Of a stretch of 64,000 bases of DNA, positions 8,205 through 26,748 are shown in pieces. The notes below the pieces were generated by a model that was given only the letters and a program-made list of their open reading frames with translations, was not told the DNA's origin and ran no database searches. A program made the translations under genes and the position numbers. Positions within the stretch are counted from its first letter, which is position 1. Each line of letters opens with the position of its first letter. The stretch is from a virus, in the IMG/VR virus record IMGVR_UViG_3300035698_009252, positions 64,001 through 128,000 of that record. One strand, given 5' to 3'.

Positions 8205-8615
8205 TTAGAACGCTCTTAGGTCCACCCTTCCCGATTCGGAACCGAAGGTATTTGAGAAAATCTTGTCATCATTGGGATGCCATCCGAACATCTTCAAGAA
8301 TTCCTGAAGGCCACGCGGCCCTTCGCCGTGGTAGCCAAAGCTGAACCCATTAAAAGTATGGGTTTCGGTGCTGCCATCCACCACCCACCTGAACCGTGCT
8401 TCCGTAATCCATTCAATGTGTTTGCTGTCGTAGGTAAAGGTCCCGTCGACCAAGAGATATCCAGCCTCCTTGATGCGCCGTGCATTTTCAAGGCTGTCGC
8501 GAGTCGCCCCTTCCCGCTTGAGCTGCAACATCTTCACGACCTGGAAGTCGCTTTTGAGAGCGACCAATTCCTTTGCCACCCCCAAAAGTTCTTTTGCCAC
8601 GGCTTGTCTGTTCAT
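8205..8615 (-). CDS. Leader-tagged protein (MNRQAVAKELLGVAKELVA), cargo with GFSFGYHGEGPRGL motif
   Basis: Shared leader. ATG coupled to the upstream TAA. Confidence 0.75.
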   Translation of the reverse strand: MNRQAVAKELLGVAKELVALKSDFQVVKMLQLKREGATRDSLENARRIKEAGYLLVDGTFTYDSKHIEWITEARFRWVVDGSTETHTFNGFSFGYHGEGPRGLQEFLKMFGWHPNDDKIFSNTFGSESGRVDLRAF

Positions 8616-8962
8616 TACCAACCTCTCATGTATTCGGATATCTCATCACCGTACTTGCGCCAAAGTCGCCTAATCGGGGGAGCATTCAGCAGAAAATGCC
8701 CCTTAGCCGCTTCCAAGAATAGATAAACAGCATCTTTCCCCTTCGTCCCCCACTTGCCGTTCAGTTGCTTTTTAACAGCCGCTAAAGAGTCGACGACCTG
8801 CTTGACAATCGGGGCGGTATTCGGTCTGTCATCAACCGAAGCAAGAGCCCACTTCTCAAGACTCACATACAGCTTCGAAAGACGTTCTCGGGCCATTGGG
8901 TCGTCATCCGCAAACATCTCGGCAATCTCTACCAGTTCCTGTGCAATTGCTTCTCTTTTCAT
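8615..8962 (-). CDS. Leader-tagged protein (MKREAIAQELVEIAEMFA)
   Basis: Shared leader. Confidence 0.75.
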   Translation of the reverse strand: MKREAIAQELVEIAEMFADDDPMARERLSKLYVSLEKWALASVDDRPNTAPIVKQVVDSLAAVKKQLNGKWGTKGKDAVYLFLEAAKGHFLLNAPPIRRLWRKYGDEISEYMRGW

Positions 8963-8976
8963 ATCGCCCTCAATAT

Positions 8977-9555
8977 TTAGAACATCTTCATAAGGGATTT
9001 GGCATAAACCAACGTCAAAGCCCCCATAACCATACCCTCTTCATTGTTGTCGTCCTCGGCATCTAAGAGCATCATCCGCCCTTTGCGACGCATCGAGTCC
9101 AGCTTACCCTTGTCCATCCCTGACAACTTTTTGTAGACGGCCTTTGAAATCCTGTCTATCTCGGAACTGCTAAGGGATACTTCCAAATCCATATCCTTAA
9201 GAACGGATTTCAGCTTCCCCGCCGACAATAGCCCGGCACTATCACTCCGGTGTGCCAACTCGTCCTTGAGCATCCGTTCGATTATCTGATTAACATCACG
9301 GTCAGTCGTGTTGGCACGAGAAGGCGTCTGGAGCGCCCCCCTCGTCCCAACTTGGATATCCCACCAAACCCTTGTCCCGAGACTCCTGTCCGCCGGATTC
9401 CTTACGACATAGACATGGACCCCATCAATCTCTCCGGCCCAAGCATACGCGCCAAGACCTATATCCATTTTCCGAAGTCCCCTCAGAAAGTTCGGAGCCG
9501 CCATCAGTTCCTTAGCAACCCTCACCAACTCTTTTGCTACTGCTTGTCGGTTCAT
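8977..9555 (-). CDS. Leader-tagged protein (MNRQAVAKELVRVAKELMA)
   Basis: Shared leader. Confidence 0.75.
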   Translation of the reverse strand: MNRQAVAKELVRVAKELMAAPNFLRGLRKMDIGLGAYAWAGEIDGVHVYVVRNPADRSLGTRVWWDIQVGTRGALQTPSRANTTDRDVNQIIERMLKDELAHRSDSAGLLSAGKLKSVLKDMDLEVSLSSSEIDRISKAVYKKLSGMDKGKLDSMRRKGRMMLLDAEDDNNEEGMVMGALTLVYAKSLMKMF

Positions 9556-9566
9556 TACGTCCCCCC

Positions 9567-9956
9567 TCAGCTCACATAGGCTGTCACGTCGTACCGGTCC
9601 AGCGGGTCATCGACACTACCGGCCCCCGCCGCAATTACGACTCCGTACAGCACGGTACGACGGCCCTTTTCATTATTGAAATACACTTCGAACTTCCACG
9701 TCTTGCTCTCGGGGACCCCGTCCCGGTTATTGGTATAGAAGTTGTCCGTCATCGCCCAGTCGAATGCGGCAGAATCCAGGGTCTTCCAAATCTGGTTAAC
9801 CCAGCGCCAATCGGTATCCCGGAGAAGCCCCTTTGGAGAGTTACGATGAATCACCTTGTTCACCTCGCGCCGGGCCTTGACATTCTTCATACCGGTGAGG
9901 GAGTTCTCATCTTCGGCCAGGTTCTCGGCGATTCTTATGATTCGTTTTAGGTCCAT
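9567..9956 (-). CDS. Short-leader protein (MDLKRIIRIAENLA)
   Basis: ATG coupled to the upstream TGA. Short leader variant. Confidence 0.7.
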   Translation of the reverse strand: MDLKRIIRIAENLAEDENSLTGMKNVKARREVNKVIHRNSPKGLLRDTDWRWVNQIWKTLDSAAFDWAMTDNFYTNNRDGVPESKTWKFEVYFNNEKGRRTVLYGVVIAAGAGSVDDPLDRYDVTAYVS

Positions 9957-10855
9957 CAGTGCCCCCATCCCAGTGCTGTTTGATATTTCGGCTTTCCGTC
10001 CCACAGGGTAGCGTGGGCATATGAATTGATACGAACCGAGTTGCCAGGACTCACGCGCTTTCTCATTTTCGGGCCAGTGAATTTGCCAGGAGCCGCTGAG
10101 ACATAAGCGGCACCTCTCTCCTCCTTGACAATCTTGGACCCTATTTCCCGGATAATCACGCTCTTTTCGCCCGCCTCGACGACCTCGTAGAAATCGATAT
10201 TGGTCTGGTCATAGCCCCACGAGGTGTACAAAATCGAGCCCACCACCAACCCGTGCTTGAATTCGTTCCGTTCCTTCTGGCGCTTCTGCTTGTCCTTGAG
10301 CCGCCCCTGGCGCTGCTCAATAGTCTCATTCACCTTCTTTTCAAACCGGTTCATATCCCGGAACCGGAAATGCCACAAGGGTTTCTGTGCCCGGCCCTGG
10401 AACGCAACACCGTAAAGATTGCCGTTCTGCTCATAGCTCCACGCCTCAATGTCCACGTCCGAGGGTATTTTAACTTCCTGGATGTTCTGATGGCGTGCCG
10501 GATTCGGACGATAGAACTCCCGCTTTTGAACCATCCGAAGTGCGGTCCTCTCTCTGGAGGAAGCAAAATACACCCTGCGAATGTCTTTCAGGAGCCTCCG
10601 AACCTTCTCCGGGGTCACGCTGTTCAGTCTCCCCGCGTCAATTGTGTAATCGTCACCGTCGAACAAGTCCCAGCGGCCACTGTCCTTCTCGATGAATACA
10701 CGCATCCCCTTCTGCCTGCGACTGATATACTCAAGGCCGTTACCCGCGTCCATGTTCGCCCATGCCCGGCTCACATCAAAATCGGGGTCACCACGACGAG
10801 CCATCAAGTCCTTCGCTACGGCCACCAACTCTTTTGCCACTGCTTTCACATTCAT
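9956..10855 (-). CDS. Leader-tagged multidomain protein (MNVKAVAKELVAVAKDLMA), C-terminal SWGYDQTNIDFY domain
   Basis: Shared leader and an internal ASSRERTA linker. Confidence 0.8.
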   Translation of the reverse strand: MNVKAVAKELVAVAKDLMARRGDPDFDVSRAWANMDAGNGLEYISRRQKGMRVFIEKDSGRWDLFDGDDYTIDAGRLNSVTPEKVRRLLKDIRRVYFASSRERTALRMVQKREFYRPNPARHQNIQEVKIPSDVDIEAWSYEQNGNLYGVAFQGRAQKPLWHFRFRDMNRFEKKVNETIEQRQGRLKDKQKRQKERNEFKHGLVVGSILYTSWGYDQTNIDFYEVVEAGEKSVIIREIGSKIVKEERGAAYVSAAPGKFTGPKMRKRVSPGNSVRINSYAHATLWDGKPKYQTALGWGH

Positions 10856-10862: not shown

Positions 10863-11273
10863 TTACCTTACGTTGTAATCGGCTTCTTTGGTCTCTTCCG
10901 AAAACGACTTGAGTTTGTACTTGGGGCTGTACTTCGTCTGCAAACGGGGCAATAGCTTATCCGCGTTTGCCTGGGTCCCGGCAATCACCTTCAACTTAGC
11001 CGATGTCACAAACCGACTGCCACGGTACTGTCCCAGGGAAATCTTCAGTTCGACGACCCTTATGCCACTGGCCGTTAAATCGTCCGTTAGGGCCTTTGTG
11101 ATGTCCACAACGGCCTGGTCTTCCCACTGGTTCTTGAGTTTCTTGGCCTTCAGGCGAATATCGAAAAAGACGCCCGCAAACAAATCGGTTGGGCGCTCTT
11201 TCGAGAAAAAGAACGAGGCAGCAACAGCCTCTGTGGCCGCGACTTGCCTCGTTATCCTTTTGATTCTCTCCAT
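10863..11273 (-). CDS. Short-leader protein (MERIKRITRQVAA)
   Basis: First gene after the promoter motif at 11287. Confidence 0.7.
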   Translation of the reverse strand: MERIKRITRQVAATEAVAASFFFSKERPTDLFAGVFFDIRLKAKKLKNQWEDQAVVDITKALTDDLTASGIRVVELKISLGQYRGSRFVTSAKLKVIAGTQANADKLLPRLQTKYSPKYKLKSFSEETKEADYNVR

Positions 11274-11286
11274 GATGGTGTCTCCA

Positions 11287-11309
11287 CCTATAGAGAGAAT
11301 ATCAATGAA
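11287..11309 (-). promoter_or_regulatory. Bipartite promoter-like motif (TTCATTGATA-N8-ATAGG)
   Basis: Repeated motif. Confidence 0.6.
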
Positions 11310-11339
11310 TTATCACACCACGGAGCACATCACGCGAAG

Positions 11340-11990
11340 CTACCCAGCAAATCGATTGCCCTTAGATGAGTTGTCCTTCAACCACAAGGGTTGAAGATTT
11401 TCCAATGCCCAGCACTCTCGGAACTGCTCATCATCTGGATTCTGCATGGAGAACCAACTTTTCGGCACAACATGGTCAACCTGCCACCCTTGCTTGCCTC
11501 CATAATTGTCCCAACTCATGCCATCCGAGAACTGCCCCTTCAAGTGGGCCATTAGCTCTTCCAATGTAAAATCGACCAGCTCTTCCCAATGACGACCGCC
11601 TTTGGAACTCCCGCCGTTTAGATGGTCACGCAAAGAATACCACACCTGGAAACCCACCCGCCGGGAGATTCGGATGCCTGGCTTACTCGTATATCGGCGA
11701 GAGGCGGCTGCTTGCAGTTCACGAGTCCGTGGCCGCTTCCCGTACTCCTTCGCATACACCCGTTGCCGGGCATTCCTCCGTTTTCGGAACTCCGGGTCGG
11801 CAGCATTCTTTCGATAACGAGCTAAAGCAGAAGCCTTCCGGGCCTCCTTGTTCTCCTGGTAACTCTGTTTACAATGCGCCTTGGCACAATCTCGACACCA
11901 GTTGAACAAGCCATCTTTGGCCTTACTATCCTTGCCGAACTCAGATACTACATCCTTCGGATGACCACATTTGGTACACCGTTTTTCCAT
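11340..11990 (-). CDS. HNH homing endonuclease
   Basis: N-terminal CxxC...CxxC and C-terminal WQVDHVVP...NLQPLW...NSSKGN HNH motif. Confidence 0.85.
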   Translation of the reverse strand: MEKRCTKCGHPKDVVSEFGKDSKAKDGLFNWCRDCAKAHCKQSYQENKEARKASALARYRKNAADPEFRKRRNARQRVYAKEYGKRPRTRELQAAASRRYTSKPGIRISRRVGFQVWYSLRDHLNGGSSKGGRHWEELVDFTLEELMAHLKGQFSDGMSWDNYGGKQGWQVDHVVPKSWFSMQNPDDEQFRECWALENLQPLWLKDNSSKGNRFAG

Positions 11991-12002
11991 AATATGCCTC
12001 CA

Positions 12003-12025
12003 TCTATGGTCGGCATATCAAAGAA
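12003..12025 (-). promoter_or_regulatory. Bipartite promoter-like motif (TTCTTTGATA-N8-ATAGA)
   Basis: Repeated motif, upstream of the HNH gene. Confidence 0.6.
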
Positions 12026-12028
12026 AAC

Positions 12029-12364
12029 TCAGTGAAAGCACATGAGACAGGCGGAGGGCATCAATAGTATCCATGAGACCACGGCGAAGCACATGCTCTT
12101 CAAACTACGAATGCTACTCACGAACTTCTGAGCCTTGACCGTCCCGGCACCGCCGAAAAACTGGGTTTTGGCGTGCCGGATATGTTCTTCGCGCATTTCG
12201 AAGACAAACACAACCTTCCGGTTTCCATTCGGGGACTGACCCGTCTCAGTCGTTACGAGAGGGAAATCCAGCGAGCACAAATAGGCCGCAAAATAAATGT
12301 CCGAAGTCCTATAGAGCTTCTTTTTAGCCTCAGACGCCCCGGACGTCTCCGTTTCCGTAGTCAT
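12029..12364 (-). CDS. DUF5659-like small protein
   Basis: YRTSDIYFAAYL...VVFVF pattern. Start MTTETET with SD GGAGG. Confidence 0.55.
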   Translation of the reverse strand: MTTETETSGASEAKKKLYRTSDIYFAAYLCSLDFPLVTTETGQSPNGNRKVVFVFEMREEHIRHAKTQFFGGAGTVKAQKFVSSIRSLKSMCFAVVSWILLMPSACLMCFH

Positions 12365-12490
12365 GCCGCCGCCTCCCTTACCTGTTCGATTTCGTATTGC
12401 CATCTGTGAGAGAGTCAGAACGAACAGTGATGACATTTCCGCAACTCCCGAATCTTTGGCCTGTAAGGTCATTGAATCTGGCTTTTCTTT

Positions 12491-12778
12491 TCACTTGGCC
12501 TCCCTCACATCGCCGCCGCCGTAATCGTAAGCCACGGTTTCCACTGGGGCTTTGCGCCCCTTCATCCGTTTTGCTGCCTTCGCGTTGCCATTCCGCATGG
12601 ATTCTCCGAAGGTACTTTTCCGGTTAATACCACCGTCAATCGCTAAAGCGAACGCGCTGAAAACGCGGGAGGCTCGGCCCCCGCACTTGCCACATTTGAC
12701 AGTGCGGGGAGCCTCACCCATACGAAACGGCTTTTCTGCTCGCGTTTCGCAACCGTTGCACTCGAACTCGTACAGCAT
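12491..12778 (-). CDS. FmdB-family zinc ribbon protein
   Basis: MLYEFECNGC...CGKCGG...RVFS. Confidence 0.8.
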   Translation of the reverse strand: MLYEFECNGCETRAEKPFRMGEAPRTVKCGKCGGRASRVFSAFALAIDGGINRKSTFGESMRNGNAKAAKRMKGRKAPVETVAYDYGGGDVREAK

Positions 12779-12781
12779 GGC

Positions 12782-13906
12782 TTACTCCGAGGCTACGGCT
12801 GTTCTGGTCACCTTCGTTGCCGTTTTGGCCTTGTTTTTCGACCCTCTCGGCCTACCCCTGCCCCGTCGAGGCGCTACTGCCGTTTTCCCGCCCGATTCGA
12901 GCTTTTCAAGGCGAGCCATAACAGCAGCCATGCCACCCTTCAACTCATCGTTCTCGGCCCGTAGAACGGCATTCTCGGCCTCTACAGCCACCTGAGCCCC
13001 TGCTTCCTTGGCCATGTCCGCCTCAAGGGCTTCCACGTCCGCATCTGACACAGTTGTGCCGGAAACGGCGAGCTGGGTTTCCCCAACGATTGAGGACGCG
13101 TCCGTGCCGCCAAGGACTTCCGTTGCCGCTTGCAGCTCTGGCGGGATGTCCTGGTCGATGACAGCCGCCGCCGTGGTGCCATCGGGGACTTCCACACCGG
13201 CCCGCTTGCGTGTCATTTCGACGTGCTTCTTGCGAACCTCGGCCTCGGCCCGCTTGCTTTCGGCATTGGCATCGGCTTCTTCCCGACTGGGAAGGTGTTG
13301 TCCCGCGTTCATGGGGATTTCGCTCCTGCCCACTCCCATACCAAGGCTGTCGTCATGGACCACCGGCATCGCCGCTCTCTGGCGCTTGAGAGCGACACGC
13401 TCGGCCATCGAAGCCATGTCGGTCTTGTCTGCCAAGTCGGCAAGCCTTTCCTCGACAGTCTCGTCGCCCTTGATGACTTCCATGGTCCTGTTGGCCGTCC
13501 GAGCACGGGCATCTGCACGCGAGGCTTCCTTTTCGGCCTGGTGGACCTTAGAGACTTGCGTATGGCGGATGTCAATGACCGGGTGGTCCGATGAATCATC
13601 CTGAACGATAGGCAAATCGTTGTTGGAACGACGAGGAGGGGCGTCCACAATCGTAGGAGCAATGCCTTTGACTTCGTCAAGCATCTCCGGCGAATATGGT
13701 ACAACCCAAGGGTCATCCGGGGTTTTCAGGGCTTGACGCTGGAGGATTTCCAGGTCACGGGTATCGTCGAACTTGCGTCCGTCGACGATGAGGATACCAC
13801 GCTCCTCATCGAGTTCAAGGACAGTCCCTCTTCCGAAGGTCTCCTTGATGTATCCGAGGTGCATTTGACTCGGAATAGTTAGAATCCATTTCGAATTCAT
13901 ATCCAT
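12782..13906 (-). CDS. Hypothetical protein with coiled coil and C-terminal AT-hook
   Basis: RRGRGRPRGSK near the C-terminus. Confidence 0.7.
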   Translation of the reverse strand: MDMNSKWILTIPSQMHLGYIKETFGRGTVLELDEERGILIVDGRKFDDTRDLEILQRQALKTPDDPWVVPYSPEMLDEVKGIAPTIVDAPPRRSNNDLPIVQDDSSDHPVIDIRHTQVSKVHQAEKEASRADARARTANRTMEVIKGDETVEERLADLADKTDMASMAERVALKRQRAAMPVVHDDSLGMGVGRSEIPMNAGQHLPSREEADANAESKRAEAEVRKKHVEMTRKRAGVEVPDGTTAAAVIDQDIPPELQAATEVLGGTDASSIVGETQLAVSGTTVSDADVEALEADMAKEAGAQVAVEAENAVLRAENDELKGGMAAVMARLEKLESGGKTAVAPRRGRGRPRGSKNKAKTATKVTRTAVASE

Positions 13907-13978: not shown

Positions 13979-14539
13979 TCAACCGAGTTTTCCGGCCAAC
14001 TCAACAAGCATGCCATATTCAACCGGGTCTCGGAAAGCATCTTTTCCATCTTTTATGAGGGCCTTGACACGGTCCTTTACTGCATCCGCGCAGCCCTCGT
14101 AAAAGTATTTCTTCTGTTTGTCTATGGCGTCAAAAAGGTCATCATCCCCCAGCAAGGAATAGAGGGCGTCGCTAGGGTCGGTCTTCAAGCTGCTGGGCTC
14201 ATCACCCTGCCGCATGTTGTTGACCATCTTGACGATTTTATCAACGTCCCTGGAGTTGTTCGGTAACGCCCATGTCCCAGCAACTCGCGTGCTTCCCAAT
14301 TTCCCGTTCCAGGGATGGCGTATCTTCAATCGTTTCATTCCGACGCCGACGGCATCTTTAAGGTCAATGATATTACGGATGCCGCTCATCTCAGAGATAT
14401 ACCGTATCAGGCGGTCTCCGTCCCGACGGGATATACCCAAGTCAGTGACATATCTCTCAATCTGGCCCTCCGTAATACCGGACGAGACGAGAGCTTCGGC
14501 AACGGTTATCAGCCGCTTTGCTATCTTCTGGCTATCCAT
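13979..14539 (-). CDS. Leader-tagged protein (MDSQKIAKRLITVAEALVS)
   Basis: Shared leader and an internal STRVAG linker. Confidence 0.75.
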   Translation of the reverse strand: MDSQKIAKRLITVAEALVSSGITEGQIERYVTDLGISRRDGDRLIRYISEMSGIRNIIDLKDAVGVGMKRLKIRHPWNGKLGSTRVAGTWALPNNSRDVDKIVKMVNNMRQGDEPSSLKTDPSDALYSLLGDDDLFDAIDKQKKYFYEGCADAVKDRVKALIKDGKDAFRDPVEYGMLVELAGKLG

Positions 14540-14604: not shown

Positions 14605-15018
14605 TTACGGAATTGTCACAATAGAACCACCAACGCCACCGAAGTTCGCGCCCGTGCCGTACCGGCGATTGCCTGTTGCGGCAATCAGGGTGTCGGACAA
14701 CGTCTTCTCTGCGTCCGTCATGGGGATTTTGTCGAGGTCCCGACCTACAGCTCCCAGCATCTCCACCAGGACGTACGTCGGCTCGCTGTCGATGTCCCCC
14801 TGATAACTTGAAGCGGCTGCCGTTACGCTCTTCTTGTTGAACGTCGTTTCTAACCATGACCGCGTACCCGTCTGAGTCTGCGGGTTCCAGATGGCCTTCA
14901 GGAACGTCTTGACTGCTGCCAATTCGACTCCCGTGGGCTCTGTGATTCTTGCATTGCGGGCAATGTTCCATACCCACCGTGAATACTGCCACCAACTACC
15001 TGTCGTGCTACCGGCCAT
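14605..15018 (-). CDS. Hypothetical protein
   Basis: 137 aa, SD AGGAGG. Confidence 0.65.
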   Translation of the reverse strand: MAGSTTGSWWQYSRWVWNIARNARITEPTGVELAAVKTFLKAIWNPQTQTGTRSWLETTFNKKSVTAAASSYQGDIDSEPTYVLVEMLGAVGRDLDKIPMTDAEKTLSDTLIAATGNRRYGTGANFGGVGGSIVTIP

Positions 15019-17332: not shown

Positions 17333-17350
17333 AACATCCATCTCCTCCTA

Positions 17351-17373
17351 CCTATGACGGCTGTATCAAAGAA
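17351..17373 (-). promoter_or_regulatory. Bipartite promoter-like motif TTCTTTGATA-N8-ATAGG
   Basis: Repeated motif. Confidence 0.65.
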
Positions 17374-20333: not shown

Positions 20334-20747
20334 CTATCTTATCGCGCTCTCCAACATGTCGATTATATCCTGGTCGTAATCGTTCCGGCTTGACTCAACA
20401 TCCTTCGGATTCCTCGACATCTTGCGCACGGAATCCCGAAATTCACTGTAATCCGTATCCTCTCCGATTGAGTTTGCGATGTGCCTTCCATCCCTCCAAT
20501 CTCCATACAGAACGATGTCTATATCCTCATACCCCTTGGAGCGGAGCGCATCTACCCACGCTTTAATAAGGTCATCCCGGTTGTCATGGGACAGCATATC
20601 GCGACTGCCCCAAAACCCCATACCACCAGACATTTTCTTGCCTAGTTTGAAAATTTCCCGGTATGACAGTTTTCTCGCAACCCGGCTTCCAGCCATCAAC
20701 TCCCGTGCCAGGGCTGCCAGTTCTTTCGCCAAATCATCCGACTTCAT
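20334..20747 (-). CDS. Leader-tagged protein (MKSDDLAKELAALARELMA)
   Basis: The leader defines the start. Confidence 0.75.
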   Translation of the reverse strand: MKSDDLAKELAALARELMAGSRVARKLSYREIFKLGKKMSGGMGFWGSRDMLSHDNRDDLIKAWVDALRSKGYEDIDIVLYGDWRDGRHIANSIGEDTDYSEFRDSVRKMSRNPKDVESSRNDYDQDIIDMLESAIR

Positions 20748-20748: not shown

Positions 20749-21189
20749 TTACCAATCTCCCGGTTTCTCAAGGTCGTACTTGTCGGCAAGCCACTCGGTG
20801 AACTCTTTGGGGCTCTCGCCACTATCATACCCCGTACGGAACTGGCTTTCAGAGAAAATGTCATTCCTGGCCAGCATGTAATCCTTCTGCATGATGGCAA
20901 TCACTTTGTCTTGCCACTCCCGGTACGACATGCCCTGCTTCTTGGCCACATCCAGCATCGGAGAATAGACATAAGCTGCCACGCCGAGTTCGGCAATTAC
21001 CCGCTCCGTCCTCAAGAGCTTACTCTTAAAGGCACGAGCTTCGTCCTGCAAACCCGCCTTGTTCAAATCACCAACGAGTTTGGAACAGGCTTGAACGAGA
21101 TTCCGGCTGGCTTGCTCCACCTCACGGCCACGGTCGTTTTTACCCGCCACACGGCTTGCGATTCTCGAAAAACGGTCTTCTTTGTTCAT
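20749..21189 (-). CDS. Short-leader protein (MNKEDRFSRIASRVAG)
   Basis: RIAxRVA variant. Confidence 0.75.
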   Translation of the reverse strand: MNKEDRFSRIASRVAGKNDRGREVEQASRNLVQACSKLVGDLNKAGLQDEARAFKSKLLRTERVIAELGVAAYVYSPMLDVAKKQGMSYREWQDKVIAIMQKDYMLARNDIFSESQFRTGYDSGESPKEFTEWLADKYDLEKPGDW

Positions 21190-21199: not shown

Positions 21200-21829
21200 T
21201 CAATCCACTGCACAATATTGATGATACGGTATTCCAGCCTTGGACATCGAATTCAGAACTTCCCCGAATGTTGCTCGCTTTATCCAGCTCTCGTTGTCCG
21301 TTGCCCAACGATAGAACATCTTGATTGACGTCTTTTTCGCGCCACGAACTGTCGGGATGCAGGTCGGCTCGTTGAACTTGTCATCCTTGTCACGGACCGA
21401 GAACGTATCAAAATTGGCTTCGATGGAGACGTGCTTGCCATCTATCTTGATGGGGGCAAACCCACCAGGCGGAACATCTACACCCCGGAGAACGCGCTCG
21501 TCTGTATTGGCGCTGTTGTAACTTGACGCCTCGTTGATAGCCTCGACGCCCTTCTCCATGATTTTGACGGCCTGCGCGTAATTCCGGGCGCGAGCCAAGT
21601 CATCCATCATGTCCTCGACTTCGGCCTTAGCGTCGTCGGCATAATCCAGGTCGTAAGCGGAGAACTGGTTGCACCTCTTACCACGCTTGCCCGCATTGGT
21701 CAAGTCAGTCACCTGGACTGACGAGCGGTACCGATGGATACGGATGGAGCCCTGCTCGACAGTCTTGCCGACACTTAGGCCACCAAGAAGGCTCTTTGCG
21801 ATTTTCAGGAGTACCCGAGCTTCGTCCAT
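21200..21829 (-). CDS. Leader-tagged protein (MDEARVLLKIAKSLLG), cargo with TDLTNAGKRGK
   Basis: Leader variant. Confidence 0.75.
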   Translation of the reverse strand: MDEARVLLKIAKSLLGGLSVGKTVEQGSIRIHRYRSSVQVTDLTNAGKRGKRCNQFSAYDLDYADDAKAEVEDMMDDLARARNYAQAVKIMEKGVEAINEASSYNSANTDERVLRGVDVPPGGFAPIKIDGKHVSIEANFDTFSVRDKDDKFNEPTCIPTVRGAKKTSIKMFYRWATDNESWIKRATFGEVLNSMSKAGIPYHQYCAVD

Positions 21830-22200
21830 TAGATGTAGCCCCTCTGTCCAGGCTCTTCGTTCTTGATATAGTCGGCTTTGCCCTTAATGGCCTCAACCAA
21901 CTTCATCACCTTTTCCTCGTCACCCTCGATGCCGATGTAGCTGGCGTAATCCGGCTCGGGGCTACGTTTGCCGTTGTAGTACTCACCGGAGATGGGGTCA
22001 TTCGCGGTAACGACTAGGATGCCTGGACCCTTCCAGACCCATCCCTTGCTCGTCTTCCGGGGCCTTGTACTCACGCCGACACTCTTGAGAGCCTGAATCC
22101 ACTTGGATGCCCGGATTTCGGTCAAGTCAAACCCGTGCTCATACGCTGTAAGCTTCCGGGCCACCCGTATCAGTTCTCTCGCGATTTTCTGCGTTGTCAT
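21829..22200 (-). CDS. Leader-tagged protein (MTTQKIARELIRVARKLTA)
   Basis: Shared leader. Confidence 0.8.
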   Translation of the reverse strand: MTTQKIARELIRVARKLTAYEHGFDLTEIRASKWIQALKSVGVSTRPRKTSKGWVWKGPGILVVTANDPISGEYYNGKRSPEPDYASYIGIEGDEEKVMKLVEAIKGKADYIKNEEPGQRGYI

Positions 22201-22204: not shown

Positions 22205-23179
22205 TTAGCCCCTTGTCATCTTGATACGTTCGTACCCCTTGCGTTCCTTCGTCCGCAGGTGTTTTTCACAAGCGGCAATCGCCTTGGTCAAACTGCTTAC
22301 GGGACCACCGAAATACTTCGCGGTCAAATCGTAGGCCCGCTCGATGATACCGATACGGCCCGAGCAATTCCAGCCAACGTAGACCTCTTCTCCCATGTCG
22401 TTTTCGACCGAGTACACGACATAATAATGGTATTTGTTGGCATTGGCCCTCGGGTCAACAATGACCAGGTAGGACGACCACCTTCGGTCCAAGTCTCGTG
22501 GTCTTGCAGACACACCGCCGTACTCAGCAAGCGTGGCCACAACCTTTATACGCATCTTCTTGGAGAGCGCCGGTGCATAACTCGTCAGGGACTGCTTGAC
22601 TTCCTTATTGCGCATTCTTATGTCCACGTCGCGCCGGATGGGCTCCCAGTCAGCCTTTTTGACCTTCTTCTTGCACTTGACACAATAGCCAGTCTGCTCC
22701 AGGACCTTCGTGCCACAGTCCGGGCACTTGAAAGTTTCAGCCGCCTTTTTGACCTTTTTCTTGCACTTGACACAGAAACCAGTCTGCTCCAGGACCTTCG
22801 TTCCGCAGTCCGGGCACTTGAAAGTTTCAGCAGCCTTCTTGTCCTTCTTTTCCTTGTCCTTCAGGAAATCGGGCTTGGGCTCATTCTCCTTGCCATCATT
22901 GTCCTTATCCTTGTCCTTCCACTGCTTCTTGAAGGCTTCGGGGACCTCACCTTTCCCAGACACCAATGCCTCGGCGATGGCAACCAGACGTTCGGAGACG
23001 GAGGACTTCTTGTCCTTCTTTTCCTTGTCTTTCAGGAAGTCAGGCTTCGGCTCATTCTCTTTGCCGTCGTTGTCCTTATCCTTGTCTTTCCACTGCTTCT
23101 TGAAAGCCTCGGGGACTTCACCCTTACCTGCCAGCAACCTTGCCACCGCTATCAGCTCTTTCGCTATACGTCTATTCAT
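22205..23179 (-). CDS. Leader-tagged protein with duplicated leader/acidic module, two zinc ribbons and a C-terminal WGR-like domain
   Basis: CPDC...CVKC occurs twice. NANKYHYY...SGRIG...KERKGY resembles WGR. Confidence 0.7.
   Translation of the reverse strand: MNRRIAKELIAVARLLAGKGEVPEAFKKQWKDKDKDNDGKENEPKPDFLKDKEKKDKKSSVSERLVAIAEALVSGKGEVPEAFKKQWKDKDKDNDGKENEPKPDFLKDKEKKDKKAAETFKCPDCGTKVLEQTGFCVKCKKKVKKAAETFKCPDCGTKVLEQTGYCVKCKKKVKKADWEPIRRDVDIRMRNKEVKQSLTSYAPALSKKMRIKVVATLAEYGGVSARPRDLDRRWSSYLVIVDPRANANKYHYYVVYSVENDMGEEVYVGWNCSGRIGIIERAYDLTAKYFGGPVSSLTKAIAACEKHLRTKERKGYERIKMTRG
22661..22840. repeat. 90-nt tandem duplication (zinc ribbon)
   Basis: Two near-identical 90-nt units. Confidence 0.9.
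22841..23179. repeat. ~171-nt-period duplication (leader + GKGEVPEAFKKQW...KDKK)
   Basis: The peptide block is repeated identically with synonymous DNA changes. Confidence 0.85.
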
Positions 23180-23472
23180 GTCAATTCTCCTATGGCACGC
23201 TCTAGCGCCTTTTGCGTTTTCTCCAAATTATCTACTTCGCGAGTCAGTTTTGACAACTTTTGCAGGGCCTTCCGGTCAAGTGTCGCATCCACGGCGTTGT
23301 TTATACGGGACCGGAGTGAGTGAACCATCAACTTCAATGGCTCGGTATCCTCTTGAGCCCATTGCATATAGCGAGCGACATCCATCACCTTGACCCCTGT
23401 CAATTCCTTCTTACCGGAGATAAGTTCCTTGGCTATGGCCACCAGTCTGCGTGCTACACGTTCTCTATTCAC
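23176..23472 (-). CDS. Leader-tagged protein (MNRERVARRLVAIAKELIS)
   Basis: Shared leader. Confidence 0.8.
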   Translation of the reverse strand: MNRERVARRLVAIAKELISGKKELTGVKVMDVARYMQWAQEDTEPLKLMVHSLRSRINNAVDATLDRKALQKLSKLTREVDNLEKTQKALERAIGELT

Positions 23473-23484: not shown

Positions 23485-23889
23485 TTACAGCATTCTCTTT
23501 ATTGCTCTCTCAAGTCTACCCACGTCCATTACCCTTTTCAGCTTGACGGAAACCAGGAACGGGTATCCTTGTTCCCTCGGGCGGAGCGCCCGAATCCTCC
23601 CGCTATTCGCAAATATGGACAATCCCGCCTTCCCCAAGACATCTCCCAGTCTGGCAAAAACACGTTCGGCCTCCTTCTCTACCTCTCCCTGCATGTCTAA
23701 CGTGTCGATGGCATCCAGGTCCTCTCCCCGCAAGTAATCCCCCTCGGGGGTGACAATCGTTCTCAGGGCAATAGAATCCTCCGATACCGACACCAGCTCA
23801 AAACTGGGCCACTCTGGCTCGGATGCCGCGACATTCCGCCCAACCAGTTCACGCGCTACAGCAGCCAGTTCCTGTGCTATTTTATCCAT
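23485..23889 (-). CDS. Leader-tagged protein (MDKIAQELAAVARELVG)
   Basis: Shared leader. Confidence 0.8.
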   Translation of the reverse strand: MDKIAQELAAVARELVGRNVAASEPEWPSFELVSVSEDSIALRTIVTPEGDYLRGEDLDAIDTLDMQGEVEKEAERVFARLGDVLGKAGLSIFANSGRIRALRPREQGYPFLVSVKLKRVMDVGRLERAIKRML

Positions 23890-24573
23890 TTACCGGCCTT
23901 TACTGATTTCAAATCGGTCATTTGCTTTGAACCAAATACGTCCAAGCTGTGAGCCATTCGTCCCGCCAGTCACATGTTCCCAATTCAAATCGACCAGGCC
24001 CCCTATGATACCGTCCTTCAAGATTCTCTCGGTGAAGACCACACTCAGGGTCAGCTTTTTGATGGTCATGCCCATAATACCGACGTCATCCTCCAGCCCG
24101 GTCTCCTCGAAGTAGAGATAGCCACGCTGACGCTTGGGTGCCCCCAATGAGGGCTTGTGTCCGAAAGCACTACGGATGGCCGCTTCCACTTTTCCCTTTG
24201 AAGCCATAAGCGTTTTTACGCGATCTTCCACGGCGGCGTCCTCTATCGCAGACCCACCCACCAAATTCTTGGCCAATCCCACCAATTCCTGAGCCATCTT
24301 GTTATCTTTCATGTTCAATCTCCGAGGGCTTGAAGCCCTTCTCATCGCTTTTTCAACCACCTTTGTCATAATCTTCTCCTGCTCTCGAAGGGGAAGCGAT
24401 TCAAAATCTGTGGGTACATCCGTACGCCTTGTCTTATTGTACAGCTCGCCATACCCAAGGGCCTTGAAAGCCTTATCGATATCCATATGTTTCTCATGGA
24501 ATCGGCTCATAACGTCAACAGCGATATCCTCGGCGCTATCCTCATAGTCTTGCTTCGAGCCACGGGCGTTCAT
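23890..24573 (-). CDS. Two-domain protein with an internal leader (MKDNKMAQELVGLAKNLVG at 24312)
   Basis: Internal leader follows an RRASSPRR linker. Confidence 0.7.
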   Translation of the reverse strand: MNARGSKQDYEDSAEDIAVDVMSRFHEKHMDIDKAFKALGYGELYNKTRRTDVPTDFESLPLREQEKIMTKVVEKAMRRASSPRRLNMKDNKMAQELVGLAKNLVGGSAIEDAAVEDRVKTLMASKGKVEAAIRSAFGHKPSLGAPKRQRGYLYFEETGLEDDVGIMGMTIKKLTLSVVFTERILKDGIIGGLVDLNWEHVTGGTNGSQLGRIWFKANDRFEISKGR

Positions 24574-25613
24574 TTCAACTCCACCATTACGGTAATCCAA
24601 CTCTTCTCCCCATCCCCATAGTTTATGCGGACAATGGCCTGCCGGTATGGAGCAAGTAGCGGCTCAAGTATCTTTTTGAAGTTGTCAGTCTCCCTTTCGA
24701 CCATATCCCGGTACGTGCTATACCCAACATCGCTTTCTCCCTCTTTCGGCAAATCGGACCGATAGGAACCTTTAATACGGGTATTGCCACTGGAAATCTT
24801 CGCGTCATCCTTCATCCAGGGACTCTTCCTGGAAATGGCCGTATCGATGGCGTTGCTAACGCCCTTCGCTATTTTCTCCCTATTCGCAATGGCATCCGTC
24901 TCGCCCTTCAATCCACTCCACCCCTTCAGGGCCTCCAACATCTTCTGAGCCGCTTGTTTAGGGGACATTGACGTTGGTGTGCCATAGCTGCCAAACACTA
25001 CCCCAGGCCCCTCTGCCGATGTGGTATTTTCGGTAAGCGTAATTTCACGCTTCATCCCATCCGAATTTCTTCCATCAACGCGCAAGATGACCTGGTACAT
25101 CACCCCGGATGGATAGTCCTTCTTCTGCCACGGAATCACTTCCAGGGCCTTCGGGTCTTCCAGTTTCGAGCGAATAATGCGAACGACGGACTGGGAGAAT
25201 TTCTTAAGGGCCGGAGGAATGGCCTTTTTGGAAAGGGTTTGGACCACCTTCTGGGCCTGGCCGATTTGCCTGGTAAACCGCTTTATCATCACGTCGGCAT
25301 CTTTAACAGCCCGCTGTACGGTCTTGTCTTCGGGGAAGTTCGTCAGGATTTGCTGCACTTCCTTCTGCACCCGGTAAGCCGATTGAATGCCATCCTGGGC
25401 CTTCTTGAGCACGACAAACTGGCCATCCACCTCCGGGTCGAGACCTGCCTGGAAGTGCATGGAAAATGTCCCGATGGTGTCGTCGATATTGTCGGCCAAC
25501 TCATCAAGAGTACCCAAAGTGCGTAGAAGCCCCTTCAGGAGCCCTTTAGAGGCATCTGCTTCAAGCCGCCGGGCAATATTTGACATGCGTACTGGAAAGG
25601 CAATTTTCTTCAT
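24570..25613 (-). CDS. Hypothetical protein with short leader (RMSNIARRLEA)
   Basis: 347 aa ORF. Confidence 0.7.
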   Translation of the reverse strand: MKKIAFPVRMSNIARRLEADASKGLLKGLLRTLGTLDELADNIDDTIGTFSMHFQAGLDPEVDGQFVVLKKAQDGIQSAYRVQKEVQQILTNFPEDKTVQRAVKDADVMIKRFTRQIGQAQKVVQTLSKKAIPPALKKFSQSVVRIIRSKLEDPKALEVIPWQKKDYPSGVMYQVILRVDGRNSDGMKREITLTENTTSAEGPGVVFGSYGTPTSMSPKQAAQKMLEALKGWSGLKGETDAIANREKIAKGVSNAIDTAISRKSPWMKDDAKISSGNTRIKGSYRSDLPKEGESDVGYSTYRDMVERETDNFKKILEPLLAPYRQAIVRINYGDGEKSWITVMVELK

Positions 25614-25616
25614 TTT

Positions 25617-25862
25617 TTACTCGTTTGTCAGAGCCGGGAACACGTCGTAATCGTTCTGCAAAGACTTTACCGCTTCCCCAACCTTATCCGCCGGGATTTC
25701 CCCGGTGACCCTCTGGCCCCTCACTTTCAAGCGGGCTGACGGGAAGTCCGCAGAAAATGCTTCGGCCTCATCCTGCCCAACGAAGTACAGCTCGACTTCA
25801 ACATTCTGGGATGCAGTCGTCATCCGTTCTGCAATCCTCTGTAACCTGGTATTGTCGCTCAT
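25617..25862 (-). CDS. Short-leader protein (MSDNTRLQRIAERMTTA)
   Basis: Leader variant. Confidence 0.7.
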   Translation of the reverse strand: MSDNTRLQRIAERMTTASQNVEVELYFVGQDEAEAFSADFPSARLKVRGQRVTGEIPADKVGEAVKSLQNDYDVFPALTNE

Positions 25863-26485
25863 CTCGCGTTCCTTCCTTGAGTGGTAATACGAATGCCTTG
25901 GGCCATGATTTTGACCAAGCCCTTCTCTGCCAGGCTCTCGATAATGGGGTTGTCTTTGCCGTACTCGCCGAGCCGGTGCCGCAGGAACTCTTGCGCCCGG
26001 TAACTGCTCTTGATGCCTCCAACAATACCCAGAGCCGCCTTCTCGTCCGGGGTGAGGATAACATCGTCATCCGGCTCCGGCATTAACTTGTCGACATCTC
26101 CCGGTCGCACGTAGATACGAAGGAAATTGCCCCGGCCACCAGCTTCCCCGGCAATAACCACGGAACCATTCGGCACATTAAAGGATTCCTCCCGGTCGAG
26201 AGCCCGGTCCTCAAAGGGATTTGAGCCACCCCACGAGCCTTGCTGAGCGTCACTGATGCGACCAGTACTCAAGTCAACCGTCACGGACAGGGCTCTATTC
26301 CCCTCAAATGCCGTCGAAACGGAATACTTTGAGTCGTAGATGACCTCGATGTCCCGTCTGCCGTACCTGAGCCGTTTTAAGGCCCTTTGAACGGCATCAG
26401 GGAGGTCCCTAACGGCTACATGTATTCCACCCATGGCCTTAAGAGAGATTTTCCCTGCAATATGGACAATTCTACGTTCGTCCAC
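25859..26485 (-). CDS. Short-leader protein (MDERRIVHIAGKI), cargo with SWGGSNPF and a C-terminal wHTH-like segment
   Basis: Leader variant. Confidence 0.7.
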   Translation of the reverse strand: MDERRIVHIAGKISLKAMGGIHVAVRDLPDAVQRALKRLRYGRRDIEVIYDSKYSVSTAFEGNRALSVTVDLSTGRISDAQQGSWGGSNPFEDRALDREESFNVPNGSVVIAGEAGGRGNFLRIYVRPGDVDKLMPEPDDDVILTPDEKAALGIVGGIKSSYRAQEFLRHRLGEYGKDNPIIESLAEKGLVKIMAQGIRITTQGRNAR

Positions 26486-26496
26486 GGCAGCCCCCT

Positions 26497-26748
26497 TTAC
26501 GCCTCGGCCAATACCTGCTCCAGGGCACCCACCAGGTCTTCAACCGTGGAGTTCGGGCGAATCACGCCAATGCCGAACTGGTTCAGCTTCCGGCGCTTCT
26601 TCTGGCTCAGTTTGTTGAGTTTCGTCCGAAGGTTACGGATACGCCCCGCAAATGCCTCGTCCACTTCCTCGCCGTCATCGGCTGCTGTCAACTCGCGAGC
26701 CAGTGAAAGGAGCCTCTTCGCCGCCTGAATTCTCTTCGTGTTGGTCAT
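26497..26748 (-). CDS. Leader-tagged protein (RIQAAKRLLSLARELTAA)
   Basis: Shared leader, SD GGAGG. Confidence 0.75.
   Translation of the reverse strand: MTNTKRIQAAKRLLSLARELTAADDGEEVDEAFAGRIRNLRTKLNKLSQKKRRKLNQFGIGVIRPNSTVEDLVGALEQVLAEA

What the first reader, a model, noticed from the sequence alone, without database searches (positions are those of the whole stretch)
8205..26748. About 30 unrelated small proteins share one N-terminal leader: a modular capsid-loading tag for a virion-delivered arsenal
Seen: about 24 genes in this interval begin with M-x4-(I/V)A(R/K)ELVAVA(R/K)(E/D)L-x-A and about 7 more with a shorter RIAx(R/N)(V/L)A form, while the domains after the leader are unrelated to each other. 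The genes are tightly coupled (ATGA/TAATG), sit between the capsid and neck genes, and share the promoter-like motif that precedes the scaffold-MCP operon. A similar helix ends the prohead protease (ESIIERVARG) and the head protein at 50257 (ALARRLVAMAKRL). Known: T4 internal proteins are packaged via a short N-terminal capsid targeting sequence that the prohead protease removes. Inference: the helix docks cargo onto the scaffold/procapsid and is cleaved after L-x-A/R-V-A, so the phage can graft any domain onto the tag and eject it at infection (anti-defence or host takeover). I know of no described family of this size with this motif.
Basis: partly seen in the sequence, partly recalled or inferred. 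Interest (0 to 1): 0.92.

Follow-up and report, generated by a model that had tools for sequence, protein, structure and literature searches.

The report
Shared address tag on phage proteins
A huge uncultured salt-lake phage starts about 25 unrelated small proteins with the same 19-residue helix, plus about 8 with a shorter form. The helix is a swappable tag found on hundreds of proteins in related phages and probably loads them into the virus head, though that destination is not proven.

Summary
Twenty-five minus-strand genes at window 8.2-26.7 kb carry M-(N/D)-x-(Q/E)-(K/R)-(I/V)-A-(R/K/Q)-E-L-V-A-V-A-(R/K)-(E/D)-L-T-A. About 8 more carry a shorter h-h-x-R-V-A form. After the tag the proteins are unrelated.

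A profile of the tag finds 243 protein clusters among 1.84 billion. Of the 148 examined, 134 have the tag at residue 1-10, and their bodies fall into 117 unrelated groups. Conservation ends abruptly after residue 19. The tag has no Pfam model, no name and no paper.

The tag is separable. Homologues of one cargo body occur with this tag, with no tag, or with two quite different tags. Each of those other tags marks 6-15 proteins in other huge phages.

Capsid loading, as with the T4 capsid targeting sequence, is the best reading but rests on circumstantial evidence:
- tag-like motifs in the C-terminal region of the prohead protease;
- tagged genes inside the head module;
- a promoter-like motif shared with structural operons;
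- unusually basic cargo.

Cleavage after L-x-A is untested.

The scan noted this array before only on overlapping windows of this same genome, not on other DNA.

The parts
8205..8615 (-). long-form leader gene, 136 aa
   Evidence: HMM 33.5 bits. The body matches residues 111-233 of a 236-aa leader protein in relative G001.
8615..8962 (-). divergent long-form leader gene, 115 aa
   Evidence: HMM 12-18 bits.
8977..9555 (-). long-form leader gene, 192 aa
   Evidence: HMM 35.3 bits.
9567..9956 (-). short-form gene (MDLKRIIRIAENL), 129 aa
   Evidence: The G001 orthologue starts MDQDRIAEKIASY.
9956..10855 (-). long-form leader gene, 299 aa, with a widely distributed C-terminal body
   Evidence: HMM 30.5 bits. 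It has 192 homologues, most without this leader. In the AlphaFold model the leader is a helix at residues 3-20, residues 21-80 have low confidence, and the body from about residue 110 has pLDDT 96-98.
10863..11273 (-). short-form gene (MERIKRITRQVAA), 136 aa
   Evidence: The G001 orthologue starts MKRGAIADRVAV. The G005 homologue aligns only from residue 31.
11340..11990 (-). HNH / endonuclease VII-like gene without a leader, inside the array
   Evidence: phrog_1035, E 3.8e-18.
12029..13906 (-). three conserved genes without a leader (147, 95 and 374 aa)
   Evidence: Orthologues in G001 and G005.
13979..14539 (-). long-form leader gene, 186 aa
   Evidence: HMM 31.1 bits. Residues 86-185 match a G001 protein in which the leader abuts this domain.
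14605..15018 (-). conserved gene without a leader, 137 aa
   Evidence: 80% identical in G001. In G005 it lies next to the orthologue of gene 26497-26748, with nothing between.
15138..15416 (-). long-form leader gene, 92 aa
   Evidence: HMM 34.2 bits.
15424..15642 (-). long-form leader gene, 72 aa
   Evidence: HMM 38.5 bits.
15643..15864 (-). long-form leader gene, 73 aa
   Evidence: HMM 44.2 bits, the best in the window.
15864..16118 (-). long-form leader gene, 84 aa
   Evidence: HMM 43.2 bits.
16115..16480 (-). long-form leader gene, 121 aa
   Evidence: HMM 37.7 bits.
16477..17073 (-). long-form leader gene, 198 aa, GTG start
   Evidence: HMM 36.6 bits.
17075..17332 (-). long-form leader gene, 85 aa
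   Evidence: HMM 36.4 bits. The G001 orthologue has an extra K/D-rich module after the leader.
17344..17379 (-). promoter-like motif inside the array
   Evidence: Matrix score 38.2.
17385..17855 (-). short-form gene (MNEERIATIARNL), 156 aa
   Evidence: Read directly from the sequence.
17852..18559 (-). gene with an internal long-form leader (Met at 18307; the HMM match starts at 18301)
   Evidence: HMM 18.9 bits. An SD-like AAGGAAG lies before the internal ATG.
18573..19028 (-). long-form leader gene, 151 aa
   Evidence: HMM 36.8 bits.
19028..19423 (-). long-form leader gene, 131 aa
   Evidence: HMM 40.9 bits.
19423..19668 (-). long-form leader gene, 81 aa, GTG start
   Evidence: HMM 36.3 bits.
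19665..19937 (-). long-form leader gene, 90 aa
   Evidence: HMM 36.9 bits.
19934..20326 (-). long-form leader gene, 130 aa
   Evidence: HMM 37.2 bits.
20334..20747 (-). long-form leader gene, 137 aa
   Evidence: HMM 28.6 bits.
20749..21189 (-). short-form gene (MNKEDRFSRIASRVAG), 146 aa
   Evidence: Member of the matrix training set. Sequence.
21200..21829 (-). short-form-like gene (MDEARVLLKIAKSLL), 209 aa
   Evidence: Pattern hit.
21829..22200 (-). long-form leader gene, 123 aa
   Evidence: HMM 36.1 bits.
22205..23179 (-). 324-aa gene: (leader + K/D-rich module) twice, zinc ribbon twice, then a WGR domain
   Evidence: HMM 28.3 and 6.6 bits. Pfam WGR 23.3 bits and double zinc ribbon domains just below their cut-offs. 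One metagenome contig skips 144 bases within the repeat.
23176..23472 (-). long-form leader gene, 98 aa, GTG start
   Evidence: HMM 30.9 bits.
23485..23889 (-). long-form leader gene, 134 aa
   Evidence: HMM 28.7 bits. Its N-terminal domain recurs fused to the 9956-10855 body in G001.
23890..24600 (-). 236-aa ORF with an internal long-form leader (Met at 24312)
   Evidence: HMM 14.8 bits. GGAG lies 7 nt before the internal ATG.
24570..26485 (-). three short-form-like genes (MSNIARRLEA; MSDNTRLQRIAERM; MDERRIVHIAGKI)
   Evidence: Read from the sequence. One scores 9.4 with the matrix.
26497..26748 (-). divergent long-form leader gene, 83 aa
   Evidence: HMM 15.7-18.9 bits. The G005 orthologue has a canonical leader.
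26792..27031 (-). conserved 79-aa gene without a leader, first gene after the promoter-like motif
   Evidence: 68% identical in G001 and 54% in G005.
27060..27095 (-). promoter-like motif at the head of the array
   Evidence: Matrix score 46.5.
11280..12031 (-). two further promoter-like motifs (11280-11315 and 11996-12031)
   Evidence: Scores 46.4 and 44.1.
50174..50209 (-). variant of the same motif before the scaffold-capsid operon
   Evidence: Score 20.2. Sequence.
50257..50565 (-). 102-aa head-module protein that ends in a leader-like helix
   Evidence: HMM 11.8 bits at the C-terminus. A 55-aa G002 counterpart ends RIAGKLLSLAEALITE.
50556..51620 (-). prohead protease with two tag-like motifs in its last 30 residues
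   Evidence: phrog_18299, E 3.3e-11. Matrix scores are 16.7 (GMIVLRVAREEL) and 12.9 (IIERVARG). The first is conserved in G001, G002 and G005.
51841..52377 (-). head-module gene with a long-form-like leader (MREVAIARRLVRLARG)
   Evidence: HMM 9-18 bits.
55816..57291 (-). CCA-adding enzyme with a leader-like N-terminal extension (MNGLVKEVLKVAREILAA)
   Evidence: Solved homologues align from query residues 11-44, depending on the structure, and the catalytic GG motif lies at residues 44-45. The G001 orthologue starts MDLAVEIIRVAKELISS.
55553..61870 (-). further head-module genes with short-form tags (starts 55819, 58156, 58896, 61870)
   Evidence: Sequences. Matrix scores 17-21, but all four are members of the training set.

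Best explanation
The 19-residue helix is a separable address tag. The phage, and a clade of related uncultured huge phages, grafts it onto many unrelated and mostly basic small proteins.

The conserved residues A7, L10, A14 and L17 form one small-and-large stripe of a two-to-three-heptad helix. That stripe is suited to tight packing against a partner helix.

The most likely partner is a component of the assembling procapsid interior (scaffold or core). Tagged proteins would then be co-assembled into the head, like the prohead protease, whose C-terminal region carries tag-like motifs. They would leave with the DNA at infection, as T4 internal proteins do through their capsid targeting sequence.

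The array is a hypervariable slot where tagged cassettes are gained, duplicated and shuffled.

Shown: the tag exists, it is under peptide-level selection, it is modular, and it is lineage-specific.
Inferred: the tag docks onto a phage-encoded partner.
Inferred more weakly: that partner lies inside the procapsid.
Not shown: removal of the tag by the protease, and ejection into the host.
For: Existence and peptide-level selection.
- 25 long-form genes.
- Synonymous codons vary at every conserved position. Third-position identity is 0.44, against about 0.25 expected from codon usage.
- All 19 positions are conserved, including polar ones (E9 in 146 of 148), and the boundary after residue 19 is sharp.

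Spread.
- 243 clusters at E <= 1e-3 among 1.84 billion representatives.
- Of the 148 examined, 134 have the tag at residue 1-10, and the bodies form 117 groups.

Modularity.
- Bodies are unrelated.
- The same body occurs with this tag, with no tag, with an LIRLAH-type tag, or with an MDKIAxPxEL-type tag.
- Domains are shuffled between G000 and G001.
- In G005 the slot between two conserved genes holds no gene, where the window has about 25.
- The modelled leader is a helix followed by a low-confidence stretch, and only the distant body is modelled with high confidence.

Lineage specificity.
- The LIRLAH-type tag is on 11 proteins in LR745208.1 and gives 15 matches in G010.
- The third tag type is on 6 proteins in G008.
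- This fits co-evolution with a phage-encoded receptor.

Link to the capsid.
- A matrix trained only on N-terminal short tags puts two sites in the protease C-terminal region among the top hits of 78,780 positions.
- The two phages that use LIRLAH tags have protease tails reading TLIRLASLLS and QMVRLGKLLS. Four phages without that tag read LLEKGxLF.
- Protease C-terminal peptides are proposed to target the enzyme into the prohead in SPN3US (PMC7411985).
- In G002 five leader genes directly precede the protease gene.
- Tagged genes lie between the portal and protease genes in the window.
- 10 of the 12 promoter-like sites lie in the structural half of the record.
- Array proteins have median pI 9.3 against 6.4 elsewhere, p = 2e-4.

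Precedent. T4 internal proteins are diverse and share only a capsid targeting sequence of about 10-20 residues that the prohead protease removes (PMC3012670, PMC7411985).
Against: - There are no virion data for this phage or any relative, because none is cultured.
- The nearest cultured phage by capsid protein, Tunturi_5, has no such tag.
- The array is 20 kb from the capsid gene.
- The promoter-like motif has not been shown to be late. It also precedes genes of unknown role at 33.9 and 35.6 kb.
- A probable AAA ATPase may carry a short tag, which is not an obvious capsid cargo.
- For the third tag type I saw no likeness to the protease tail, so the co-variation rests on two lineages and was noticed after the fact.
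- Homologues of one cargo body in small temperate Streptococcus phages lie at about 16-18 kb of their 40-kb records, and their role is unknown.
- The tag has no detectable sequence likeness to the T4 sequence.
- The capsid protein has no N-terminal delta domain that the protease would need to remove.
Confidence: 0.5

Rival explanations
1. The tag is a docking or oligomerisation helix for a hub that is not the capsid. Candidates are a phage-encoded assembly in the infected cell (a compartment, chaperone, unfoldase or transcription/replication factory) or a host factor. It would gather or regulate many accessory proteins.
For: - All the evidence for modularity and lineage specificity fits equally well.
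- Internal copies of the helix without a Met occur in multi-module proteins and in a 1243-residue open frame in G010, as expected of a generic docking module.
- In LR745208.1 the tagged genes are scattered over the genome on both strands.
- A probable AAA ATPase carries a short tag.
Against: - It does not explain tag-like motifs in the protease C-terminal region.
- It does not explain the clustering of tagged genes in head modules.
- It does not explain the motif shared with structural operons.
- No candidate hub was identified.
Confidence: 0.25
2. The array is an ordinary tandemly duplicated paralogue family. The bodies have diverged beyond recognition, and the N-terminal helix is simply the best-conserved part of each fold, with no targeting role.
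For: - Neighbouring leaders are close at the DNA level (15416 and 15642 share about 41 of 51 bases).
- Third-position identity of 0.44 exceeds the codon-usage baseline, so duplication has occurred.
Against: - Body lengths range from 72 to 324 aa with no detectable similarity.
- Bodies include a WGR/zinc-ribbon protein and a CCA-adding enzyme.
- Homologous bodies exist without the helix or with unrelated leaders.
- There are 117 body groups among 148 representatives.
- Conservation stops sharply at residue 19.
- The model does not pack the helix against the body with confidence.
Confidence: 0.08
3. The conserved unit works at the nucleic-acid level. It would be a recombination cassette boundary or a translation-initiation element, and the peptide would be a by-product.
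For: - The rare Ile codon ATA is used in 8 of 10 cases and GCA in 11 of 17 at position 7.
- Contigs from other samples diverge near some gene boundaries.
- T4-type phages shuffle genes through conserved regulatory cassettes (PMC2839356, abstract).
Against: - Every conserved residue is encoded by several codons.
- Across metagenomes the protein motif is kept, yet an exact degenerate DNA pattern finds only 8 viral contigs against 243 protein clusters.
- Sequence upstream of the start codons is not conserved.
- Homology between leaders may still aid shuffling as a side effect.
Confidence: 0.04
4. The helix is an export or maturation leader of the bacteriocin or RiPP type. In that type many precursors share one leader that a dedicated peptidase or transporter removes after a small-residue pair.
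For: - The formal likeness to precursor families with one leader and many cores (my own knowledge of prochlorosins, not checked here).
- The leader ends in A/G followed by A/G.
Against: - Cargo proteins are 72-324 aa, and 491 aa for the enzyme.
- The scans I made, which did not cover every gene, showed no modifying enzyme, C39 peptidase or transporter.
- The tag pattern is absent from the bacterial and archaeal genomes searched, one for each of 185,579 species, and is known only from viral or metagenomic contigs.
Confidence: 0.03

Closest known systems
Capsid targeting sequence (CTS) of T4 internal proteins IPI-III and Alt
   Same: A short N-terminal peptide of about 10-20 residues is the only thing shared by otherwise diverse small proteins. 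Their genes vary between related phages. In T4 the peptide directs them into the scaffolding core and the prohead protease removes it (PMC3012670, PMC7411985).
   Different: - I saw no sequence likeness, but I ran no formal comparison.
- There are 25-33 tagged genes per genome here, against a handful in T4.
- The tag is 19 residues, conserved at every position, and predicted helical.
- It also occurs as an internal repeat.
- The protease belongs to another PHROG family.
- Packaging and cleavage are unproven here.
N-terminal propeptides of head and ejection proteins, and the C-terminal propeptide of the prohead protease, in giant phages SPN3US and phiKZ
   Same: Giant phages load many proteins into the head. 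The propeptides are proposed to do the targeting, and the protease's own C-terminal peptide is proposed to carry it into the prohead (PMC7411985).
   Different: Those propeptides are long (about 110-130 residues) and do not share one consensus. Here a single short consensus is reused and resembles the protease C-terminal region.
Encapsulin cargo-loading peptides
   Same: A short terminal peptide docks unrelated cargo enzymes onto the inner face of an HK97-fold shell (my own knowledge, not checked here). The capsid protein here is of the HK97 family.
   Different: Encapsulin peptides are mostly C-terminal and extended rather than helical, and the shell is not a virus. No interaction with the capsid protein could be predicted here.
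Scaffolding-protein C-terminal helix-turn-helix that binds coat protein (P22, 80alpha)
   Same: The 233-aa scaffold-like protein ends in two helices (RLDRVASYLE and RIDRIADAI) that resemble the short tags. Cargo could therefore mimic the scaffold's docking element. The P22 and 80alpha precedent is from my own knowledge.
   Different: The likeness is by eye only. These sites did not rank among the top matrix hits.
RiPP or bacteriocin precursor families with one leader and many cores
   Same: Many genes share a conserved N-terminal leader followed by hypervariable sequence.
   Different: Here the 'cores' are whole proteins and enzymes, the setting is a phage structural region, and no maturation machinery was seen.

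Membership tests
T4-type capsid targeting sequence system | A short N-terminal peptide shared by otherwise unrelated proteins of one phage | tested here: met
   25 long-form genes; bodies unrelated; 19-residue module.
T4-type capsid targeting sequence system | Tagged proteins are present inside the virion | not testable with these tools
   The phage is uncultured and no proteome exists. Only indirect indications are available.
T4-type capsid targeting sequence system | The prohead protease removes the tag at a consensus site | not testable with these tools
   A prohead protease is present and the tag has a sharp end after L-T-A, but no cleavage data exist.
T4-type capsid targeting sequence system | The tag is sufficient to load a foreign protein | not testable with these tools
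   Natural grafting onto 117 body groups and onto a CCA-adding enzyme shows portability, not loading.
T4-type capsid targeting sequence system | Sequence homology of the tag or the protease to the T4 counterparts | tested here: inconclusive
   The protease matches phrog_18299 and no Pfam protease family. The tag matches no Pfam or PHROG model. I made no direct comparison with T4 sequences.
Encapsulin-type cargo-loading peptide | The peptide binds the inner face of an HK97-fold shell protein | not testable with these tools
   The shell protein is of the HK97 family. The one complex prediction gave no verdict.
RiPP / double-glycine leader families | Short core peptides, with a cognate modifying enzyme or a peptidase-transporter | tested here: not met
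   Cargo proteins are 72-324 aa and include enzymes. The family scans, which did not cover every gene, found no such machinery.
Tandem paralogue family | Members are homologous over their whole length | tested here: not met
   No similarity after residue 24. Homologous bodies occur without the helix.

The most novel reading that the evidence does not exclude
Huge phages of this capsid lineage use a programmable protein zip code. At least three unrelated short leader families each mark 6 to about 30 unrelated proteins per genome: ARELVAVA-type, LIRLAH-type and MDKIAxPxEL-type. They are swapped onto the same cargo domains between lineages. They co-vary with the C-terminal tail of the prohead protease, because cargo and protease dock on the same procapsid receptor. 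If so, the phage head delivers dozens of pre-made effectors, and the tag alone predicts the injected proteome from sequence.
Probability: 0.4. Interest if true: 0.9.

Novelty: new variant of a known kind. Interest (0 to 1): 0.8.

Why it matters
- If the tag loads the capsid, it identifies the injected arsenal of a whole clade of uncultured huge phages from sequence alone. That is hundreds of protein families of unknown function that act in the first seconds of infection, and so are prime candidates for counter-defence and host takeover.
- It would be by far the largest tagged-cargo repertoire known for a phage.
- A 19-residue helix that already carries more than 100 natural cargo types would be a ready-made handle for packaging proteins into phage-derived particles.
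- Even if the destination is not the capsid, the finding is a general, lineage-specific protein address code in viruses of bacteria, which is new.
- A leader-GFP fusion co-expressed with the head genes would test it directly.

Tried and rejected
- Complex prediction of capsid protein + 233-aa scaffold + leader: no verdict (score 0.02, below the mark). It counts neither for nor against.
- A degenerate DNA pattern of the leader found nothing in the genome collection, which holds one genome for each of 185,579 prokaryotic species, and only 2-8 viral contigs. The DNA is too diverged for pattern scans.
- LR745208.1 and the cultured Tunturi_5 phage have no ARELVAVA leader.
- The fold of the 9956-10855 body has no significant PDB match. 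The Atlas feature search gave nothing usable.
- Pfam and PHROGs give almost no function for cargo bodies.
- Sigma-70 promoter-like and terminator-like sites are no more frequent than in shuffles.
- No RNA holder is listed among public runs.
- Full-text search for the motif strings found no paper.
- I saw no likeness between the third tag type and its protease tail.
- I considered cleavage at A-x-E (positions 7-9), by analogy with Glu-specific prohead proteases. I left it as speculation, because nothing tests it.

Full report
CONTEXT
The window is bases 64001-128000 of a 139.6-kb IMG/VR virus record. CheckV rates it 43% complete, so the genome is probably above 300 kb. Public runs that hold the stretch are salt-lake metagenomes. 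All genes are on the minus strand.
- The window holds a head module: an HK97-family capsid protein at 46798-47658, two acidic scaffold-like proteins, a prohead protease at 50556-51620 and a portal at 58915-60876.
- It also holds a RecQ region, a Ro60 gene with a tmRNA/tRNA island, the array in question, and then probable connector and tail genes.

A strict pattern for the helix matches 21 times. All matches are on the minus strand, at window 8.5-23.9 kb, and directly behind a start codon. There are none elsewhere in the record.
- A 20-residue HMM scores these at 28-44 bits. It adds weaker members at 8962, 18301, 24312, 26721 and 52353, a C-terminal copy at 50310, and two genes near the start of the record.
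- Iteration over four related phages saturates at 44-45 N-termini.
- In the interval I count 25 long-form genes and 8 with the shorter h-h-x-R-(V/I)-A form. That motif occurs at 10 N-termini in three phages where 1.5 are expected.
- After residue 24 no two proteins are similar.
- Many genes overlap by 1 or 4 bases.

PEPTIDE, NOT DNA
Each conserved residue is written with several codons, and the sequence upstream of the start codons is not conserved. Third-position identity is 0.44, against about 0.25 expected. Some leaders therefore share recent ancestry, but selection acts on the peptide.

A LARGE UNDESCRIBED FAMILY
A profile of 23 leaders (A1) searched against 1.84 billion cluster representatives gives 243 proteins at E <= 1e-3.
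- Of the 148 examined, 134 have the leader within the first 10 residues. Median length is 115 aa. With leaders masked, the bodies fall into 117 BLAST groups.
- Information content is 1.9-4.8 bits at positions 1-19 and about 0.2 from position 21 on. E9 is kept in 146 of 148, A14 in 148, and L10 in 147.
- A7, L10, A14 and L17 form one heptad stripe of alternating small and large residues. I infer that this suits tight packing against a partner helix.
- The conserved polar positions suggest specific recognition rather than mere amphipathicity.
- No Pfam or PHROG model covers the leader. All looked-up members are metagenomic and unnamed or 'hypothetical', apart from one that carries what looks like a spurious automatic name.
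- The motif strings occur in no paper of the library.
- The DNA pattern is absent from the bacterial and archaeal genomes searched, one for each of 185,579 species.

THE TAG IS SEPARABLE AND LINEAGE-SPECIFIC
Relative G001 (68 kb, syntenic) has 14 leader matches. G002 has five leader genes directly upstream of its protease gene. G005 has about three. Between the window and G001 the modules behind the tag are rearranged:
- the body of 8205-8615 lies 110 residues further from the leader in G001;
- the C-terminal domain of 13979-14539 abuts the leader in G001;
- a K/D-rich module is present once in a G001 protein and twice in 22205-23179;
- one G001 protein combines the N-domain of 23485-23889 with the body of 9956-10855.

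In G005 the orthologues of 14605-15018 and 26497-26748 are adjacent. The roughly 25 genes between them in the window are therefore a lineage-specific expansion.

The strongest test used the body of 9956-10855, which has 192 homologues. Of the 120 listed, 18 carry this leader. Many start directly at the body (MPRxxYLP...). Others carry a quite different leader of the LIRLAH type, a third type (MDKIAxPxEL...LAERVA), or a short h-h-x-R-(F/W/V)-x-x-A helix.

Each alternative leader is itself reused:
- the LIRLAH type heads 11 proteins in the 485-kb phage LR745208.1;
- it gives 15 matches in G010, three of them inside one 1243-residue open frame;
- the third type heads 6 proteins in the complete 398-kb phage G008.

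All these phages share the same protease and capsid lineage.

An AlphaFold model of 9956-10855 shows the leader as a helix at residues 3-20, a low-confidence stretch, and a confident body from about residue 110. The CCA-adding enzyme at 55816-57291 has a leader-like N-terminal extension. The catalytic GG motif lies at residues 44-45, and solved homologues align from query residues 11-44, depending on the structure.

WHERE THE TAG POINTS
No result shows the destination directly. Five indirect lines point to the head.
1. Protease C-terminal region. A position matrix trained only on N-terminal short tags was scanned over 78,780 non-N-terminal positions of four phages. Among its top hits are two sites in the last 30 residues of the prohead protease (GMIVLRVAREEL and IIERVARG). 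The first is conserved in all four orthologues. Another top hit is the C-terminal tail of the G001 protein next to the portal. Protease C-terminal peptides are proposed to target the enzyme into the prohead in SPN3US (PMC7411985).
2. Co-variation of tag and tail. The two phages that use LIRLAH tags have protease tails TLIRLASLLS and QMVRLGKLLS. Four phages without that tag read LLEKGxLF. I noticed this after the fact, and I saw no such likeness for the third tag type.
3. Gene position. Tagged genes sit between the portal and protease genes in the window and in G001, and directly before the protease gene in G002. A small protein between protease and scaffold ends in a leader-like helix in both the window and G002.
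4. Shared promoter-like motif. The motif has 12 minus-strand sites and none in shuffles. Ten lie in the structural half of the record. They include the head of the array, three sites inside it, the scaffold operon and the tail module. Its timing is unknown.
5. Charge. Array proteins are basic, with median pI 9.3 against 6.4 for the rest, p = 2e-4. This is as expected for proteins packed with DNA, but it is not specific.

The precedent is T4. Its internal proteins are a diverse set that share only a capsid targeting sequence of about 10-20 residues, which directs them to the scaffolding core and is then removed by the protease (PMC3012670, PMC7411985).

WHAT SPEAKS AGAINST OR REMAINS OPEN
- No relative is cultured. 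The nearest cultured phage, Tunturi_5, lacks the tag.
- Cleavage after L-x-A is untested.
- Internal copies without a Met exist, so the element is a docking helix or a polyprotein delimiter rather than a signal that needs a free N-terminus.
- A probable AAA ATPase may carry the short tag.
- The single complex prediction gave no verdict.

VERDICT
The 'capsid loading and ejection' half is the best available reading (about 0.5) but is not shown.

The system works like the T4 capsid targeting sequence but is not a member by sequence. It differs in scale, in conservation, and in belonging to a set of interchangeable lineage-specific tags. I rate it a new variant of a known kind, with high interest.

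Noticed in passing
L028 (LR745208.1) 16723-17124 and 8445-9497; places in the record listed: A related 485-kb phage has no ARELVAVA leader. Instead 11 proteins start MTTLRSKLIRLAHENPALRPQLLPLLKEAG. They are scattered over the genome on both strands, and one lies between the decoration-like and scaffold-like genes.
   Followed up: partly
L061 (G010:26000-32500): There is an array of LIRLAH-type leaders. Three are internal, without a Met, in one 1243-residue open frame, and one of these is followed directly by the 9956-10855-type body. It looks like a cargo polyprotein.
   Followed up: partly
G008, places listed: A third leader type (MDKIAxPxEL...LAERVA, about 45 residues) heads six proteins of a complete 398-kb phage.
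   Followed up: partly
window 5210-5245, 11280-11315, 11996-12031, 17344-17379, 27060-27095, 33860-33895, 35543-35578, 50174-50209, 54270-54305: The motif TGATAATTCTTTGATAT-N7-(C/T)ATAGGT(A/G)G runs into the ribosome-binding site. The spacing does not fit sigma-70, so it may be a promoter for a phage-specific factor or an operator.
   Followed up: partly
window 22876-23021: One metagenome contig skips 144 bases inside the internally repeated (leader + K/D-rich) region of gene 22205-23179, which would be a copy-number variant of the repeat. Contigs from all four runs diverge at 16520/16540, and contigs from two runs at 25633/25662, so strains may differ in neighbouring cassettes.
   Followed up: no
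window 32581-33723: The AAA ATPase ORF has an internal Met followed by MNDNIAERVARSF, a high-scoring short tag. The true start may be there.
   Followed up: no
window 9956-10600: The body of this cargo (conserved SSWGYDQTN.DFY and WDGKPKYQT) is a widespread phage domain with no Pfam model and no PDB fold match. It also occurs in cultured Vibrio (about 190 kb), Paraglaciecola and Streptococcus phages.
   Followed up: partly
window 62490-63569: One protein has a topoisomerase IB catalytic core (Pfam E 3.6e-31) and a weaker SprT-like metalloprotease match at its C-terminus (below the Pfam cut-off). It sits in the head module next to the terminase end.
   Followed up: no
window 49453-50154: The C-terminus of the scaffold-like protein is a conserved helix-turn-helix (RLDRVASYLEKQGR..LALRIDRI.DAI) that resembles the short tags.
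   Followed up: partly
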